From assembly GCA_963737655.1 (NCBI GenBank), contig CAVTTN010000002.1, positions 3,552,001 through 3,616,000 of the forward strand: a DNA stretch of 64,000 bases. The letters run 5' to 3'. Under the pieces are notes generated by a model that made no database searches, was not told the origin of the DNA, and saw only the letters and a list, made by a program, of their open reading frames with translations. Positions 20,506 through 25,577 of the stretch are shown one piece after another; position 1 is the stretch's first letter, and each line of letters begins with the position of its first letter. The translations under genes and the position numbers were made by a program. This DNA comes from an uncultured Planctomycetota bacterium (GTDB lineage Bacteria; Planctomycetota; Planctomycetia; Isosphaerales; Isosphaeraceae).

Positions 20506-21141
20506 CTACGACCGCTTCTTCCGGCCGCCGCCCGGAGGTTCGCCCTCGACCTCCCGGACGATCCGGGCGATCTCGTCGTCGGTCGGCGCGAAGCCGTCGC
20601 CGGGGGCGTCTCGGAGGCCCGGTTCTTCATCGACGTGAGCAAACGTGTTCATCCAGAAGGCCGCCTCGGCCGCCGACGGCCCCTGCTGGCGGGCCGTCTC
20701 CTCGGGCGAGAGGGCCGGCGCCGGCGCCTCCTTCTTCTTCCGTCCGCGGTCGGCGACCTGGGACAGGAACTCGTCGCACGAGAGCGACCTCGCCCCCTTG
20801 CGGATCGCCGCGACCCTCACCCGATGGTCCGTCGAGACGACCGTCACCGCCTTCGGCGTCGGGTGGGAGGCCAGGATGGCCTCGATCCGGGCGTCGGCGT
20901 CCTCGTCGTCCACCGCGAACAGGATCGTCAGGCCCTTATGTTTTGCCCGATCCGGCCGGTCCGGCGGAGGATGGGCGGCGTCGAACACCACGACGGCCCC
21001 CGCGCTGTCAAGCGGCCCCAACGACGCCGCCAGGTCGTCGAGGAACCGAGTGCGGGCCCTTCGGAGCCCATCGGGCCCGAAGTCGCGTTCCATCAGCCCT
21101 CGGGCATGCATCAGGTTGTAGCCGTCGATGAGGGTCCTCAT
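20506..21141 (-). CDS. YacP-like NYN-domain protein
   Basis: LIDGYNL, VVVFDA, DADARIE and VVSTD (PIN/NYN acidic residues). Confidence 0.85.
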   Translation of the reverse strand: MRTLIDGYNLMHARGLMERDFGPDGLRRARTRFLDDLAASLGPLDSAGAVVVFDAAHPPPDRPDRAKHKGLTILFAVDDEDADARIEAILASHPTPKAVTVVSTDHRVRVAAIRKGARSLSCDEFLSQVADRGRKKKEAPAPALSPEETARQQGPSAAEAAFWMNTFAHVDEEPGLRDAPGDGFAPTDDEIARIVREVEGEPPGGGRKKRS

Positions 21142-21861
21142 GTCCACGATTGTATCCCGACCCCAGGCCCGAGGGGAGGTCGGCGACCCGTCGCGGGTCG
21201 TGGCAATCGGTTCGAATGCCGATGTGAAATTTTCATGGAATCATGATTTGAGATCGGGGAACGCACGGTCTCGTGACCGCGGCCGGGATCGAACCCAGGT
21301 TAGAATCTCATGATTTCCAATATTGTTGATATTACTCAATTTTACGTTTCGCAAGATCGTCGATGTCAACAAAGTGGACAACACAATCATCAAACTGGAC
21401 TACACTCGAGGGGCCAAAAACGCATTCCATCCGAGAAAACAAGGCGAAACCGGGCGCGCACTCGGTAAGGCCAGGTTCCACTTGCCAGAATCTGCATACT
21501 TTTGATGAATGGACTCAAATTCGGTTCTCGCAATAACTTACGCCGCCAGGAGACAGGGTCGCCTCCTGCCGGAAAACGCCCGGATTACGCTTCGTTCCGG
21601 GCCCTGGCTCGGGGCCCGAATCCGAGGGCCGATGCCGCGGGCTCCCGGAGCTTGGCCGGGATCGGGTGATCGGCGGCGTCGGGCGTCTCGATACTCCTTC
21701 CAGAAACTCGATTCGAACGGCCGCGATAAGAAGCGTTTCCTTCTCGGCGGACGGTTCTTCGGGGGCGTCCCGGCCGAGCGACCCCCGGGAAGGAAACGGC
21801 CCTGTCCCGGGGAATCGTCTTGCGGAACGTGCGGAGACCGGCCAAGATGGATGCGTTCGAC

Positions 21862-22192
21862 GCGGCCCTAGCTCAACGGTTAGAGCAGGGGACTCATCAA
21901 TAAATGGTGGCGCCGGTGGGCAACCACCGGACGCGATCCGGGTGAATTGCGGGAAGCCTAAACCGACCCCCCCGGCACGGTAATCCGCAGCCAAGCCTGG
22001 CAGGGCTTCGTTCGCCAGGACGGTTCAGAGACTAGCGGGGTGAGCCCCAACGATAATCCCCGCCCCGAGCGCCCGGCCTCCCCGATCGGACCGCCTGCGA
22101 GTCCCGAAGGGAGGGTGAGATAGTCCGAGCCCCTCGGAAACGGGGGGATGCCTCGAATCCCTTGGTTGCAGGTTCGAATCCTGCGGGCCGCA
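21862..22192 (+). tRNA. tRNA with CAU anticodon (probably tRNA-Ile2), intron-split; exons 21862-21897 and 22156-22192
   Basis: Spliced sequence GCGGCCC TA GCTC AACGGTTA GAGC A GGGGA CTCAT|AA TCCCT TGGTT GCAGG TTCGAAT CCTGC GGGCCGC A folds into a full 73-nt cloverleaf. CCA is not encoded. Confidence 0.93.
21898..22155 (+). ncRNA. group I self-splicing intron, 258 nt, no ORF
   Basis: P1 CATCA/TGGTG with U.G at the 5' splice site, P2 with GCAA loop, P3 CCGGGTG/CGCCCGG, P AATTGCGGGAA, Q AATCCGCAGC, R GTTCAGAGACTA, S GAGATAGTCC, P9 with GAAA loop, and terminal G22155. Confidence 0.92.
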
Positions 22193-22197
22193 CTCCC

Positions 22198-24149
22198 TTG
22201 ACCAAATCCCTAGCCTTCCCAGAATCCCCCAAAGCTCCCCGACGAACTCGGGGATGGGGATGGCTCGTCGTCTTCGCCCTGGCAACCCTCCACGAGGTCG
22301 GAAGCTGGGTGGGCCTGGGGGGTTGGAAAGACCTGTCCAGCCCGTCGCCCATCACCCTCCAGGACCACCCGGTCCACGAGCACAGCCTGGCCATCTCCCC
22401 CACCTTTCTCCGCCGGTCCGGGACCACCGCCGGCTACGACCCCAGCTTCATGGCCGGCTATCCCAAGAGCGTGATTTTCCCCCAGTCCTCGACCCTTTAC
22501 GACGCCACAAGCTTCCTGATCCCCGGGGTGCCCCGGCCGATCCTCCATAAGTGGATTGTTTTCTTCGCCCTGGGGAGCATCCCCTGGGTCGTCGCCCTCG
22601 CGGGAAGCCTCTGGGGGCTTCGAGACGACGCCGTCGCCTGGGCCGTCGCCCTGTTCCTGCTCTATGTCTGGACCAATGGGGGGGATGCCGGCTTCCCCCT
22701 CAATTTTGCCTATTTTGGCATGCTAACTTACCTCCTGGCGGTGCCCGTTTGTCTGGTCGCGACGGCGGCCTACTCCCGATACATGGCACGGGGCGGGATG
22801 GGCCGGTGGTTCGGGGCGATCTTGGCCTCGTTCCTGGCGTTCCTGGTCCACGTCACGGCGCCGATGATCGTGGTTCCGGGGGCGTTGTTGAGCTTCCTGA
22901 CCGCCCTGACCAATCGACAGAAGTTCCCCATCTCACGGTACATCGGCGCGTGGACCGTGCCGATCTTCGCGGTCGCCCTGAACGCGTTTTGGTGGCTTCC
23001 GGGCGTGTGGCTCTGGAAGGTCAAGGGAGACACCGGGTTCGCGTTCGACCACTCGAAGGAAAGCGTCTGGACCCGCCTGGCCCAGATCGTCACGACCGCC
23101 CCGCCGATCCAGGCCGTTCTGGTCGGTGCGGGTCTGGTGGGAATTGTGGTCCTTTGGGCCCGGGACCGGGTGTCTGCGGCCGGTCTGGGCGGGTTCGCTC
23201 TGGCCGGGCTTGCCTGGGGTTACCTCGCCGGCGCCGTCCCGAGCCTGGATGCCCTCCAGCCGGGCCGGCATACCTACGCGCTGTTCGCCGGATTGGCCTT
23301 GCTTGGCGGATTGGGGATTTCGGAGGCGTTGGATCGGCTCTCGACCGGCCGCCCGGCCCTTCGCCTGGTGGCCGCCTTTGGCCTGATCGTGTTCGCGGGC
23401 CGGGTGTTCGGTCCGGACCTGGCGGTTTCGGTCCGCTCTCGCCTGGGCTGGCATGCCGGGCCTGGGGCGAGGCCGTTCGTGGGGAGCGAGCCGACCGATC
23501 AGTTCACTCGGCTGATCGCCTGGATTCGCTCCAACGTCAAGCCGGGTGAGCGGTTGTATTACGAAGAGGCCGGCGGCGAGCCGCTACCGGGCGACCCCGA
23601 ACCGTTCGGCGGCCACCGCTATAGCGGCGTGTTGCCGGAGATGACCGGCGTGGAGGTCATCGGCGGCCCTTATTTGAAAGCCTCGGTCGTCCAGAACTTC
23701 ACCCAGATTGGCAGCGGCCTCCTCTTCGGCAAGCCCGAGTGGACCGTGGAACGGTTCGAGAAATACGCCCGCCTCTATCGGCCGTCGGCGATCGTCTGCT
23801 GGAGCCGTCCGGCCCGCGCCTTCTGCCGAAATCACCCAGATCTCGTATCCGTCAGCTTCGACGACGGCCGAATCCTGGCCGGCACGGTGATCGGGTTCGC
23901 GGGCTCGGCGATCCGGGGACGCTGCGAGGTCTTGGCAAGCCCCGGGCGGCTGGACGTCCGGGGGATGGTGCCCGACCTTGACGGCCTGGTCGTGCTCCGG
24001 TATCACCACGCGCCGGACTTCGGAGCCGTCCGACCGTGACGATCGAGCCGGTCCTCCTGGAAGACGACCCGGCACCGTTCATCGGCCTGAGGCCGACGGG
24101 CGGTTCGAGGGAGACGGTCCTGGACCTGGCGATCCCTCCGGCCCGATAA
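22198..24149 (+). CDS. multi-pass membrane protein, probable GT-C-type glycosyltransferase (frameshift near 24015)
   Basis: More than 10 hydrophobic segments and LQDHPVH...GYDPSFMAGYP. The C-terminus continues as ..TIEPVLLEDDPAPFIGL.. in another frame to TAA at 24147-24149. Start uncertain. Confidence 0.65.
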
Positions 24150-24272
24150 GATTAGAGTGATGGGACCACCCGCCGAACCCTCAGGAGGAGGCGCCTCGGC
24201 GAGGTGAGGATCGGAAAATGGGGGCGGGCCGTCCGGATCGGCCGCCCCTCGTCTCCAGGGAAGGAGAAGTCC

Positions 24273-25577
24273 GTGACCAGTCCCGAAGAGGCCCCGAACC
24301 CCGACCGCCACGGGCGGAGGGCGGTCTGGATCGCCTACCTCGTCACCATGATCGGCGCCGGACTGATCTACAAGGACAAGGCGGAGGAGGATCGCTCCGC
24401 GTTCGTCCGCTGGCGCCATCAGGTCCTGGAGATCCGCGAAGGGAAGAACATCTGGGATCGCTATTACTTCCCCAATCCGCCCATCCTCGCGCTGACGGTC
24501 TACCCCCTGATGACCCTTCCCCCGGTCGAGGGGGCGTTGTGCTGGTTCAGCCTCAAGGCGTCGATCGCCGCCCTCTGCATGATGGCGTGCATGAGGATGG
24601 CGAAGCCGCCGTGGCTGAAATTCCCGTCGTGGGCGCAGGCGGCCGTGGTCCTTTTATGCCTCCGGCCGATCATGGGAGACCTGCACCACGGCAACAACAA
24701 TTTGATCATCTTTGGCCTGATCGTGACGACGCTGTGGGCCTGGAGGCGGGGCCTGGACGTGATGGCGGGCCTGGCGCTGGCCCTGGCAATTTGCTACAAG
24801 GTCACTCCCGCCTTGTTTGTCCCTTATTTCATGTACAAACGCTCCTGGAGGACGGTCGGGGCGACGTTCCTGGGGATCGTCCTGTTCCTGCTGGTGGTGC
24901 CGAGCCTGATCCTGGGGCCGACGTTCAACGTCCAGTGCCTGGCGAGCTGGTATCGCCGGATCCTGAGTCCCTACATGGAGAACGGGAGCGGCAGCCCTCA
25001 GGAAGTGAACCAGTCGATGGTCGGCGTAATCTACCGCCTCCTCCTGGAGCCGAAGGCGGCCGGTGAGCACAGCTACGGGACGGCCAAGCTGGATCTGAAC
25101 ATCGCGAGCCTCCCTCAAGGGCTCGTCTCGGTCGTGGCCAAGGGGCTCTCGGTCGTCCTGGTCGGCCTCCTGGCGGTCCTCTGCCGGACGAAGACGACCG
25201 ATCGGAAGGACCCGAGGCTCCTGGGCGAATTCTCCCTGGTCGTCCTCACGATGCTGTTCGTGTCGGAGAGGAGCTGGAAGCACCATTACGTGACGATGGT
25301 GTTGCCGTATACCTACCTGGTCGCCCGGACGCTGGTCCTGCCGGCGGAGAAGCGAGTCCGCTGGATCCTTGCCGGGTCCCTGGCGCTGTCGGCGTTCCTC
25401 ATGGCGTGTACGTCGAGCGAGATCGGCTCGCTACTGGTGAAGCACGGGCACAAGATTGCCCAGTTTTACGGCCTCTTCTTCTGGGCGGGGGTGGTGGCGT
25501 ACGTCGCGACGGCCTGGAGGGTCGCGGCCGAGGCCCGAACCTCCCCCCTGGAGCCGGTTCCGGCCTTGACCTCCTGA
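24273..25577 (+). CDS. glycosyltransferase family 87 (DUF2029) membrane protein
   Basis: YYFPNPP, DLHHGNNNL, LAICYKVTPAL, NQS and SERSWKHHY. AAGGAG RBS before GTG 24273. Confidence 0.8.
   Translation: MTSPEEAPNPDRHGRRAVWIAYLVTMIGAGLIYKDKAEEDRSAFVRWRHQVLEIREGKNIWDRYYFPNPPILALTVYPLMTLPPVEGALCWFSLKASIAALCMMACMRMAKPPWLKFPSWAQAAVVLLCLRPIMGDLHHGNNNLIIFGLIVTTLWAWRRGLDVMAGLALALAICYKVTPALFVPYFMYKRSWRTVGATFLGIVLFLLVVPSLILGPTFNVQCLASWYRRILSPYMENGSGSPQEVNQSMVGVIYRLLLEPKAAGEHSYGTAKLDLNIASLPQGLVSVVAKGLSVVLVGLLAVLCRTKTTDRKDPRLLGEFSLVVLTMLFVSERSWKHHYVTMVLPYTYLVARTLVLPAEKRVRWILAGSLALSAFLMACTSSEIGSLLVKHGHKIAQFYGLFFWAGVVAYVATAWRVAAEARTSPLEPVPALTS

What the first reader, a model, noticed from the sequence alone, without database searches (positions are those of the whole stretch)
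21862..22192. Group I self-splicing intron splitting a CAU-anticodon tRNA in a planctomycete
Seen: the 5' half of a tRNA stops at ...GACTCAT (21897) and the 3' half resumes at AATCCCT (22156). Joined, they give a complete 73-nt cloverleaf. The 258 nt between them carry all group I hallmarks. P1 pairs C21895-G21909, A21896-U21908, U21897.G21907 (the splice-site wobble), C21898-G21906 and A21899-U21905. P3, P4 (TTGCGGG/TCCGCAG), P7 (GACTA/TAGTC), P8 (CCTCCC/GGGAGG), GNRA-capped P2 and P9, and a terminal G are all present. Established: bacterial tRNA group I introns are rare and best known from cyanobacterial tRNA-Leu/fMet, Agrobacterium tRNA-Arg and Azoarcus tRNA-Ile(CAU). The Azoarcus intron sits at this same position, directly after the anticodon. 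Inference: I know of no characterised planctomycete example, and standard annotation could miss this gene. There is no homing endonuclease ORF.
Basis: partly seen in the sequence, partly recalled or inferred. Interest (0 to 1): 0.9.

Follow-up and report, generated by a model that had tools for sequence, protein, structure and literature searches.

The report
Self-splicing intron inside a tRNA-Ile gene
The gene for the isoleucine tRNA that reads the rare AUA codon is interrupted right after its anticodon by a 258-base self-splicing (group I) intron, a real and well-preserved element that belongs to a class already known from other bacteria.

Summary
Window 21862-22192 (+) is a 73-nt tRNA(CAU) split after U36 by a 258-nt group I intron that ends in G. 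Rfam RF00028 scores it 48.9 bits (cut-off 50, E 1.8e-11), so gathering-threshold Rfam and default ARAGORN both miss the gene.

The same intron sits at the same site in 31 of 36 other genomes of the family, which record titles name Isosphaeraceae. On 29 aligned pre-tRNAs my hand-drawn structure pairs 98.2% of cells, against 36-49% when slid, and 22 pairs show compensatory changes.

The host is tRNA-Ile2, the lysidine tRNA, not tRNA-Met. Its 5' exon best matches E. coli 'tRNA-Ile' genes, relatives carry three CAU tRNA classes and this is the third, and TilS is encoded.

This is the classical 'Ile2.5Ug' (Azoarcus-type, IC3) setting. Williams 2020 catalogued 5,292 such split tRNA genes.

One feature is new to my knowledge: a nearly invariant 32-nt hairpin between P7 and P3'. 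The same intron lineage carries it in tRNA-Arg, tRNA-Leu and tRNA-Phe genes of other phyla.

Verdict: correct, a useful annotation catch, a new member of a known kind, of modest interest.

The parts
21862..21897 (+). 5' exon of tRNA-Ile2(CAU): acceptor 5' strand, D arm, anticodon-stem 5' strand, C32 U33 and anticodon C34 A35 U36
   Evidence: Identical or nearly so in 29 of 29 orthologs. Its best E. coli matches lie under features annotated tRNA-Ile.
21898..22155 (+). Group I intron, 258 nt, with no ORF of its own
   Evidence: RF00028 48.9 bits, E 1.8e-11. Structure and covariation. An independent RNAalifold run recovers the same helices.
22156..22192 (+). 3' exon of tRNA-Ile2: A37 A38, anticodon-stem 3' strand, variable loop, T arm, acceptor 3' strand and discriminator A. 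CCA is not encoded.
21895..21909 (+). P1. Exon C34 A35 U36 plus intron C, A pair with the guide UGGUG (21905-21909), with the U21897.G21907 wobble at the 5' splice site.
   Evidence: C-G, A-U and U.G are kept in 29 of 29 sequences, and the next pair is C-G in 28 and U-A in 1.
21910..21934 (+). P2 (21910-21919 with 21924-21934, one bulge), capped by the GNRA loop GCAA at 21920-21923
   Evidence: helix 5: 7 of 10 pairs have changes on both sides.
21938..21944 (+). P3 5' strand. It pairs with 22070-22076 and forms the P3/P7 pseudoknot.
   Evidence: helix 6: 99.5% of cells paired, but the helix is invariant, so there is no covariation evidence. One search shows the covariance-model alignment.
21948..21989 (+). 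P4 (21948-21953 with 21984-21989) enclosing P5 (21957-21958 with 21979-21980) and a short P5a hairpin. The internal loop CCUAAAC/GGCAYGG resembles an 11-nt GAAA-tetraloop receptor.
   Evidence: P5a covaries, with up to 15 both-side changes per pair. The receptor resemblance is recalled, not tested.
21990..22024 (+). P6 (21990-21991 with 22023-22024) and P6a (21996-22001 with 22014-22019), with the conserved apical GGG at 22003-22005
   Evidence: helix 10: 4 of 6 pairs have both-side changes. GGG conservation.
22030..22034 (+). P7 5' strand GACUA. It pairs with UAGUC at 22121-22125 and is inferred to hold the guanosine-binding site.
   Evidence: helix 11: invariant and 100% paired.
22035..22066 (+). 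Extra 32-nt element between P7 and P3'. It has a 6-bp G/C stem (GCGGGG/CCCCGC) and a 17-nt, nearly invariant loop UGAGYCCCAACRAUAAY.
   Evidence: Nearly invariant in 29 of 29 orthologs and in the 80 loci fetched of the 101 stretches the pattern scan found, which required its first five bases. RNAalifold predicts the stem. Loop CCC covaries with the P6a GGG in 4 of 95 distinct sequences.
22070..22076 (+). P3 3' strand
22077..22114 (+). P8 (22077-22082 with 22109-22114) with a tip of variable length
   Evidence: helix 12: 2 of 6 pairs have both-side changes.
22121..22125 (+). P7 3' strand UAGUC, preceded by J8/7 GUGAGA
22127..22154 (+). P9.0 (22127-22129 with 22152-22154) enclosing P9 (22130-22136 with 22141-22147), which is capped by GAAA at 22137-22140
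   Evidence: The first P9.0 pair is G-C in 15 sequences and A-U in 14, with no mismatch. In P9, 4 of 7 pairs have both-side changes.
22155..22155 (+). Omega-G, the last intron nucleotide
   Evidence: G in 29 of 29 orthologs. G in all 78 loci for which a U(-1)/G(omega) solution was found.

Best explanation
This is the organism's tRNA-Ile2(CAU) gene, whose product becomes the AUA-reading lysidine tRNA. It is transcribed as a 331-nt precursor carrying a 258-nt group I intron between U36 and A37.

The intron folds into the canonical core: P1-P2, P3-P8, P4-P6, P7, P9.0 and P9. Its guide sequence GUG pairs with the anticodon CAU itself and puts the U36.G wobble at the 5' splice site.

In step one a free guanosine bound in P7 attacks after U36. 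In step two P9.0 places the terminal G22155 in the same pocket, and the 3'-OH of U36 attacks after it. This joins CAU to AAUCCC and releases the intron. The tRNA's own anticodon stem most likely holds the 3' exon in place, because no conserved P10 is seen.

TilS then converts C34 to lysidine.

Shown here: the sequence, the fold with covariation, conservation at one site across a bacterial family, and the tRNA's identity.
Inferred: the chemistry, autonomous self-splicing, the tetraloop dockings (L2 to P8, L9 to the P5 receptor, by analogy with Azoarcus), and a stabilising role for the extra hairpin between P7 and P3'.
For: Covariance model. RF00028 covers all 253 model positions at 48.9 bits, E 1.8e-11, and is the only hit in the genome. 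Among orthologs, 14 of 20 score 50-76 bits.

Conservation. The intron sits at exactly CAU|...G|AAUCCC in all 29 full pre-tRNAs extracted. By my reading of the match rows, 31 of 36 other genomes of the family carry it: 28 full, plus G011, G019 and G021 in pieces. One (G007) is intronless. In the other 4 it was not found: G003, G006 and G036 gave no match and G035 gave only a weak match to the 3' exon (completeness 76-96%).

Structure. Of 2,319 cells, 98.2% pair, against 35.8-49.1% with the 3' partner slid by 1-3 columns. There are 22 pairs with compensatory changes, against 4-7 when slid, and 0 of 500 shuffles reach the observed percentage paired, the two counts of both-side changes or the covariation score; 3 of 500 reach the count of further pair types. 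The P9.0 pair next to omega-G is G-C in 15 sequences and A-U in 14. RNAalifold independently recovers P1, P2, P3, P4, P5, P5a, P6, P6a, P8, P9.0 and P9.

The exons stay functional. Acceptor-stem pairs change C-G to U-A in a compensatory way (helix 1).

Identity.
- The 5' exon matches 'tRNA-Ile' features in 5,424 of 5,426 E. coli genomes at up to 88.9% identity.
- The spliced sequence shares 62 identical positions with that E. coli tRNA, against 54 with the genome's own tRNA-Met.
- Relatives have three CAU classes: initiator-like, elongator Met, and this one.
- TilS is encoded: TIGR02432 at 162.6 bits, cut-off 93.6.
- No other CAU tRNA except an elongator-Met type is found in the assembly, so this gene must yield a working tRNA.

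Literature. Ile2.5Ug is a classical IC3 setting (Williams 2020, whole text read). The Azoarcus pre-tRNA-Ile intron self-splices in vitro (PMC13168695, passages read).
Against: The window's own copy falls 1.1 bits under Rfam's gathering score.

P3, P4 and P7 are invariant, so they are compatible with the fold but give no covariation evidence.

No spliced product of this organism was seen.

An odd tRNA(UAU)-like gene elsewhere (G000:C2:6624238-6624309; 48 bits, C at position 37) could in principle read AUA. That would weaken the argument that the split gene is essential.

Whether splicing needs a protein helper is unknown.
Confidence: 0.9

Rival explanations
1. The intron is real, but it is not autonomous in the cell. 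The nearly invariant 17-nt loop of the extra hairpin would be a binding site for a host protein (a maturase-like or chaperone factor) needed for folding or splicing.
For: The loop is more conserved than any other peripheral element. It is nearly identical in the 80 loci fetched of the 101 stretches found, across several phylum labels and four host tRNAs. Conservation of unpaired sequence fits recognition by something, whether RNA or protein.
Against: No candidate protein gene is linked. The neighbours are a YacP-like NYN protein and a GT87 glycosyltransferase. The loop's CCC covaries with the GGG of the P6a loop (CUC with GAG in 4 of 95 distinct sequences, no exception at that pair), which points to an RNA-RNA contact. 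The related Azoarcus intron needs no protein.
Confidence: 0.12
2. The host is an elongator tRNA-Met rather than tRNA-Ile2. AUA would then be read by the tRNA(UAU)-like gene.
For: ARAGORN labels the spliced product tRNA-Met(cat). The assembly holds only two CAU tRNAs and no initiator, plus a UAU-anticodon tRNA-like gene.
Against: ARAGORN names every CAU tRNA Met. The exon's best E. coli matches are tRNA-Ile. A separate elongator-Met type exists at C2:1417550-1417623, with orthologs in relatives. Relatives with complete genomes carry all three CAU classes. TilS is present. The UAU tRNA has C37 and G8 and the lowest score of the good tRNA hits.
Confidence: 0.04
3. It is a decayed, non-splicing intron, so the tRNA is a pseudogene.
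For: The score is just under Rfam's cut-off. No splicing was seen directly.
Against: The window's copy keeps every nucleotide that is invariant across the 29 orthologs, by construction. The helices keep pairing through compensatory changes. No other tRNA-Ile2 gene exists in the assembly, yet TilS is retained.
Confidence: 0.03
4. It is an assembly chimera or an insertion artefact.
For: None found.
Against: The same architecture occurs in 31 other assemblies of the family, some of them single-contig genomes, and in named isolates such as Singulisphaera acidiphila DSM 18658, Tundrisphaera lichenicola P12, Paludisphaera soli and Tautonia sociabilis.
Confidence: 0.01

Closest known systems
[quoted passage not shown]
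   Same: The host tRNA and the insertion point are the same: after the fifth anticodon-loop nucleotide, with U(-1) and G(omega). The guide sequence pairs with the anticodon CAU. The intron is compact and has no ORF. The helix set P2-P9 plus P9.0 is the same (for Azoarcus; here). L2 and L9 are GNRA loops.
   Different: The intron is 258 nt against 205 nt. A conserved 32-nt hairpin lies between P7 and P3'; the Azoarcus paper's element list (P2-P9, P9.0) has no such element and the paper never mentions P7.1. An insert-less intron at the same site in two genomes of another planctomycete family (G051, G056) looks closer to my recollection of the Azoarcus core.
Agrobacterium tumefaciens tRNA-Arg(CCU) intron; class 'Arg.5Ug'
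   Same: A planctomycete of another family (G037, locus L071) has a tRNA-Arg(CCU) split after U36 by an intron of the same lineage, including the extra hairpin (RF00028 68.7 bits). This is the classical Arg.5Ug setting.
   Different: The host tRNA differs. Whether the Agrobacterium intron itself has the hairpin was not tested. No Agrobacterium or Rhizobium title is among the 80 titles shown out of 101 pattern matches.
Cyanobacterial and plastid tRNA-Leu(UAA) intron; class 'Leu.3Ug'
   Same: It is an ancient group I intron in an anticodon loop, without an ORF, inherited vertically across a large clade. Here the clade is a whole family.
   Different: The host and the site differ. The Leu(UAA) genes that carry this intron lineage (14 loci, mostly Myxococcota MAGs) are split one position earlier, CU|UAAAA.
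P7.1/P7.2 extensions of subgroup IA introns (phage T4 td, Twort)
   Same: They are extra helices inserted at the same topological place, between the 5' strand of P7 and the 3' strand of P3. This is recalled, not tested.
   Different: Here there is a single hairpin with a long conserved loop in an otherwise IC3-like intron. No sequence similarity was tested.

Membership tests
Group I intron (Rfam RF00028) | 5' splice site preceded by U that forms a U.G wobble within P1 | tested here: met
   U21897.G21907. The U.G pair is kept in 29 of 29 orthologs, and the two flanking exon pairs are also kept in 29 of 29.
Group I intron (Rfam RF00028) | Terminal guanosine (omega-G) at the 3' end of the intron | tested here: met
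   G22155. G in 29 of 29 orthologs. It is positioned by a covarying P9.0, G-C in 15 and A-U in 14.
Group I intron (Rfam RF00028) | Conserved core in canonical order: P3-P4-P5-P6-P7-P3'-P8-P7'-P9, with the P3/P7 pseudoknot | tested here: met
   All helices are present and 98.2% of cells pair. Covariation is seen in P2, P5a, P6a, P8, P9.0 and P9. P3, P4 and P7 are invariant.
Group I intron (Rfam RF00028) | Covariance-model score at or above the curated gathering score (50 bits) | tested here: inconclusive
   The window copy scores 48.9 bits, E 1.8e-11, just under the cut-off. Of 20 orthologous loci, 14 score 50.3-76 bits, 4 score 47.4-48.1 and 2 are not listed.
Group I intron (Rfam RF00028) | Guanosine-dependent self-splicing | not testable with these tools
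   This needs an in vitro transcript with GTP and Mg2+.
IC3 tRNA introns, class Ile2.5Ug (Azoarcus type) | Inserted after the fifth nucleotide of the anticodon loop of tRNA-Ile2(CAU), with U(-1) and G(omega) | tested here: met
   The mature loop is CUCAU|AA. The class definition is in Williams 2020.
IC3 tRNA introns, class Ile2.5Ug (Azoarcus type) | Compact architecture P2-P9 and P9.0, without P2.1, P5abc or P7.1/7.2 | tested here: not met
   All the listed helices are present, but an additional conserved 32-nt hairpin sits between P7 and P3'. The site and the core therefore match, but the architecture is a variant.
IC3 tRNA introns, class Ile2.5Ug (Azoarcus type) | Sequence relatedness to the Azoarcus or Synechococcus IC3 introns | not tested
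The assignment to the subgroup rests on site, size and helix set.
tRNA-Ile2 (lysidine tRNA) | CAU anticodon with an elongator-type body distinct from tRNA-Met and tRNA-fMet, resembling known tRNA-Ile2 | tested here: met
   G1:C72 and C11:G24, so it is not an initiator. The best E. coli matches are tRNA-Ile. It is the third CAU class in relatives.
tRNA-Ile2 (lysidine tRNA) | The genome encodes TilS | tested here: met
   TIGR02432 at 162.6 bits, cut-off 93.6, on the 519-aa ORF L032:1321-2880.
tRNA-Ile2 (lysidine tRNA) | Lysidine at C34 and charging with isoleucine | not testable with these tools
   This needs tRNA mass spectrometry or an aminoacylation assay.

The most novel reading that the evidence does not exclude
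The 32-nt hairpin between P7 and P3' would define an undescribed structural subclass of IC3-type tRNA introns. Its 17-nt loop would dock on the P6a loop through a three-base-pair contact (CCC with GGG), clamping the P4-P6 domain to the P3-P9 domain. This subclass would have moved between four anticodon-loop settings (Ile2 after U36, Arg-CCU after U36, Leu-UAA after U33, Phe-GAA after U33) in Planctomycetota, Myxococcota and Methylomirabilota, and then become fixed and vertically inherited in the whole family Isosphaeraceae.
Probability: 0.3. Interest if true: 0.45.

Novelty: new member of a known kind. Interest (0 to 1): 0.3.

Why it matters
The value is mainly practical. In this genome, and by extension across Isosphaeraceae, the only tRNA-Ile2 gene is invisible to default ARAGORN and to Rfam at its gathering score. 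An annotation would therefore appear to lack the AUA decoder, and TilS would look like an orphan.

Biologically it is a clean case of a group I intron fixed at one tRNA site across a whole bacterial family. The intron's guide sequence is locked to the anticodon it interrupts.

The extra hairpin, conserved across host tRNAs and phyla, gives ribozyme structural biologists a compact natural variant of the well-studied Azoarcus scaffold, with a testable tertiary contact.

None of this overturns current understanding. Thousands of such split tRNA genes have been catalogued.

Tried and rejected
RNA evidence for splicing. The look-up of sequencing runs found only metatranscriptomes that hold 5-7% of the sampled words. 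I laid Logan contigs of four of them.
- One run had nothing on the stretch.
- Three had contigs over the intron core and over the 3' splice site. These are relatives, and could be DNA or precursor RNA.
- One contig in X3 showed a joint from 21898 to 22154, skipping 255 nt rather than the expected 258, with 30 letters on the shorter side and 'between: not known'.
That contig could be a mature tRNA of a relative or an intronless allele of another planctomycete. I count it as no evidence either way.

A sigma-70 and terminator scan of 21500-22500 gave no promoter upstream of the tRNA and no terminator. This is uninformative for this phylum.

blastn of the pre-tRNA against the plasmid and phage collections gave no match.

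No conserved P10 was found. I looked by eye at the P1 loop against the 3' exon; the loop varies in length and sequence.

An alternative fold of the extra element, a GGGG/YCCC hairpin with a UGAG loop, was considered and put aside. The Arg-intron variant (L071) cannot form it, whereas the outer GCGGG/CCCGC stem is kept there and tolerates only C-to-U changes.

The search for an initiator tRNA in the genome's own assembly failed by every route: ARAGORN, RF00005, regular expressions, and blastn with relatives' initiators.

One search used a badly spaced pattern and returned only noise. One search was too loose to be useful.

Literature. Searches ('group I intron' with Planctomycetes, Planctomycetota, planctomycet-, Isosphaera and similar terms) returned no paper whose title or abstract deals with planctomycete tRNA introns; I saw listings only. 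The tRNADB-CE papers (passages read) mention intron-bearing tRNA-Leu(TAA) genes in Burkholderia only.

Full report
**What is in the sequence.** A 36-nt 5' tRNA half ends in ...GGGGACUCAU. It is followed by 258 nt that end in G, and then by a 37-nt 3' half that starts AAUCCCU. Joined in a script, the halves give a 73-nt cloverleaf with anticodon CAU: a 7-bp acceptor stem, a 4-bp D stem, a 5-bp anticodon stem, a 5-bp T stem and discriminator A, with CCA not encoded.

Default ARAGORN finds no tRNA anywhere in the window. Rfam at gathering thresholds reports nothing. On a focused search RF00028 covers all 253 model positions at 48.9 bits, E 1.8e-11, which is 1.1 bits under the curated 50. It is the only RF00028 hit at E<=1 in the 7.63-Mb genome.

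**Relatives.** A blastn search of 60 related genomes shows that the split gene is a family trait. By my reading of the match rows, 31 of the 36 other genomes of family f1 carry it. In 28 it is whole. In three it comes in pieces: G021 across two contig ends, and G011 and G019 with large insertions. One genome (G007) has a precise intronless allele. In four nothing usable was found: G003, G006, G036 and G035, with completeness 76-96%.

All 29 full pre-tRNAs, the window's included, have the intron at exactly CAU|...G|AAUCCC. Introns range from 251 to 369 nt by my subtraction of 73 exon bases from the lengths; the alignment is A1. Of 20 of these loci scanned with Rfam, 18 match RF00028 at E<=1e-5, and 14 of them score 50-76 bits.

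Titles of public records with the same intron name Isosphaeraceae: Singulisphaera, Tundrisphaera, Paludisphaera and Tautonia, plus many MAGs.

**Structure.** I wrote the canonical group I helices onto A1 and counted pairs.
- Of 2,319 cells, 98.2% form standard pairs, against 35.8-49.1% when the 3' partners are slid by 1-3 columns.
- 22 pairs have changes on both sides, against 4-7 when slid.
- 0 of 500 shuffles reach the observed percentage paired, the two counts of both-side changes or the covariation score; 3 of 500 reach the count of further pair types.

Covariation is rich in P2 (7 of 10 pairs), P6a (4 of 6), P9 (4 of 7) and P8 (2 of 6). The P9.0 pair next to the terminal G is G-C in 15 sequences and A-U in 14, with no mismatch. 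P3, P4 and P7 never vary, so they fit the fold without testing it.

The three exon-guide pairs of P1 (C34-G, A35-U, U36.G) are kept in 29 of 29 sequences. RNAalifold, run without my structure, recovers P1, P2, P3, P4, P5, P5a, P6, P6a, P8, P9.0 and P9. The exons also behave as a working tRNA: two acceptor pairs change C-G to U-A in a compensatory way.

**Which tRNA.** ARAGORN calls every CAU tRNA 'Met'. Four lines of evidence say Ile2.
1. The body is an elongator type (G1:C72, C11:G24), so it is not an initiator.
2. The 5' exon's best matches in 5,424 of 5,426 complete E. coli genomes lie under features annotated tRNA-Ile, at up to 88.9% identity over 34 of 36 nt and a median of two places per genome. 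The spliced sequence shares 62 identical positions with that E. coli tRNA, against 54 with the genome's own tRNA-Met.
3. In five relatives' genomes (four of them a single contig) the CAU tRNAs fall into three classes: initiator-like, elongator Met (ortholog of G000:C2:1417550-1417623), and this one. This class is contiguous in three genomes outside f1 and missing as a contiguous gene in the two f1 genomes.
4. TilS is encoded: TIGR02432 at 162.6 bits, cut-off 93.6.

The own assembly has no other candidate tRNA-Ile2. The intron must therefore come out for TilS to have a substrate.

**How it most likely works.** The guide GUG (21907-21909) pairs with the anticodon itself. Free guanosine bound in P7 attacks after U36. 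P9.0 then delivers G22155 to the same site, and the exons are ligated. I see no conserved P10, so the tRNA's anticodon stem probably aligns the 3' exon. A paper title in the reference list of PMC3984707 reports that requirement for the Anabaena pre-tRNA intron. L2 (GNRA) and L9 (GAAA), and a CCUAAAC/GGCAYGG internal loop in P5 that resembles the 11-nt receptor, suggest the same two dockings as in Azoarcus. That comparison is recalled, not tested. The chemistry and the autonomy of splicing are inferences.

**Comparison with what is known.** It maps 5,292 intron-split bacterial tRNA genes in 21 settings. It names Leu.3Ug, Arg.5Ug, fMet.2Ug and Ile2.5Ug as the four classical, IC3-type ones. The window's gene is Ile2.5Ug, the Azoarcus setting.

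The per-phylum table is an image and the supplements are closed. I therefore cannot say whether planctomycetes were already counted; its January 2017 data set may have held some.

Four library searches for 'group I intron' with planctomycete names found no paper on the subject by title or abstract.

The Azoarcus intron is 205 nt and is built of P2-P9 and P9.0 (PMC13168695, passages read).

**What differs.** Between the 5' strand of P7 and the 3' strand of P3 lies a 32-nt element (22035-22066). It has a G/C stem and a 17-nt loop, UGAGYCCCAACRAUAAY, and is almost invariant in all 29 orthologs. A pattern built on it found 101 stretches among the representative genomes, of which 80 were listed and fetched. 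By splice-site rules and regular expressions, the 80 divide as follows.
- 65 are tRNA(CAU) genes of Isosphaeraceae-type records.
- 14 are tRNA-Leu(UAA) genes split CU|UAAAA. Most are in Myxococcota MAGs; the other records are labelled Gemmatimonadota, Proteobacteria, Deltaproteobacteria and 'bacterium'.
- 1 is a tRNA-Phe(GAA) gene of a Methylomirabilota MAG.

A planctomycete of another family (G037) has the same intron lineage in tRNA-Arg(CCU). Two genomes of a further family (G051, G056) have a different intron without the insert at the Ile2 site.

The loop's CCC and the apical GGG of P6a change together. CUC goes with GAG in 4 of 95 distinct sequences. These are G018 and three metagenome contigs, all of one clade, so probably a single event. 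There is no exception at that pair. The divergent Arg intron has GCC in the loop with an unaltered GGG. This hints at a loop-loop contact and is not proof.

**Evidence from RNA.** No run holds this organism. Metatranscriptome contigs of relatives cover the intron core and the 3' splice site. One contig carries a joint close to the expected one but not at it, and it cannot be attributed. I draw nothing from this.

**Verdict.** The observation and the reading are correct. The element is a bona fide group I intron in the tRNA-Ile2 gene, is inherited across Isosphaeraceae, and is missed by routine annotation. It is a new member of a long-known class and perhaps a new structural variant of it. Interest is modest at 0.3.

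Noticed in passing
G000 whole assembly; relatives' loci L041, L049, L052, L054, L065: No initiator tRNA gene is recognisable in the genome's own assembly. ARAGORN, RF00005, regular expressions, and blastn with relatives' initiators all fail, and the assembly has no N runs. Relatives' initiators have only two of the three canonical anticodon-stem G:C pairs (A29:U41). The canonical arm GGGCTCATAACCC occurs in 5 of 61 genomes of the class, 2 of which also match the reversed control pattern. One relative has five tandem initiator copies (G024:C4:500823-503022).
   Followed up: partly
G000:C2:6624238-6624309 (+), outside the window: A tRNA-like gene with anticodon UAU (it would read AUA) scores 48 bits on RF00005. 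It has C at position 37 and G at position 8, both unusual. It may be a pseudo-tRNA or a second AUA decoder.
   Followed up: no
G000:C2:52385-52469 (-), outside the window: An 85-nt tRNA-like sequence (RF00005 39.5 bits) has a much extended anticodon arm. ARAGORN calls it Leu(aag).
   Followed up: no
L071 (G037:C273:20800-21600), about 184-534: A tRNA-Arg(CCU) gene in a planctomycete of another family is split after U36 by a group I intron of the same lineage, including the extra hairpin (RF00028 68.7 bits).
   Followed up: partly
L077, L089-L091, L094, L096, L103, L113, L120, L125, L136, L138, L142, L149 (tRNA-Leu); L145 (tRNA-Phe): The same intron lineage splits tRNA-Leu(UAA) between U33 and U34 in 14 records, mostly Myxococcota MAGs. 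That is one position upstream of the classical cyanobacterial site. It also splits tRNA-Phe(GAA) at the same position in a Methylomirabilota MAG.
   Followed up: partly
L069 (G056) and L070 (G051): Two genomes of another planctomycete family carry a different, insert-less group I intron at the same tRNA-Ile2 site (RF00028 27.9 and 48.7 bits). The site has therefore been occupied by at least two intron types.
   Followed up: partly
L074 and L075 (G007:C4:101750-101950 and 116400-116600); also G041:C1:1655598 and 1695852: The one intronless family member has a full tRNA-Ile2 gene. A second copy of its 3' part, with at least 60 nt of downstream flank, lies 14.6 kb away. G041 likewise has a second, partial copy 40 kb away. 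Either could mark an inserted element or a duplication.
   Followed up: no
window 20506-21147 (-) and 24204-25577 (+): The neighbours of the tRNA are a YacP-like NYN-domain protein upstream and a family-87 glycosyltransferase downstream. The long ORFs that overlap the tRNA and intron (21515-21994 -, 22032-22427 -, 22162-24039 +) have no Pfam match and are probably high-GC artefacts, at least at their 5' ends.
   Followed up: partly
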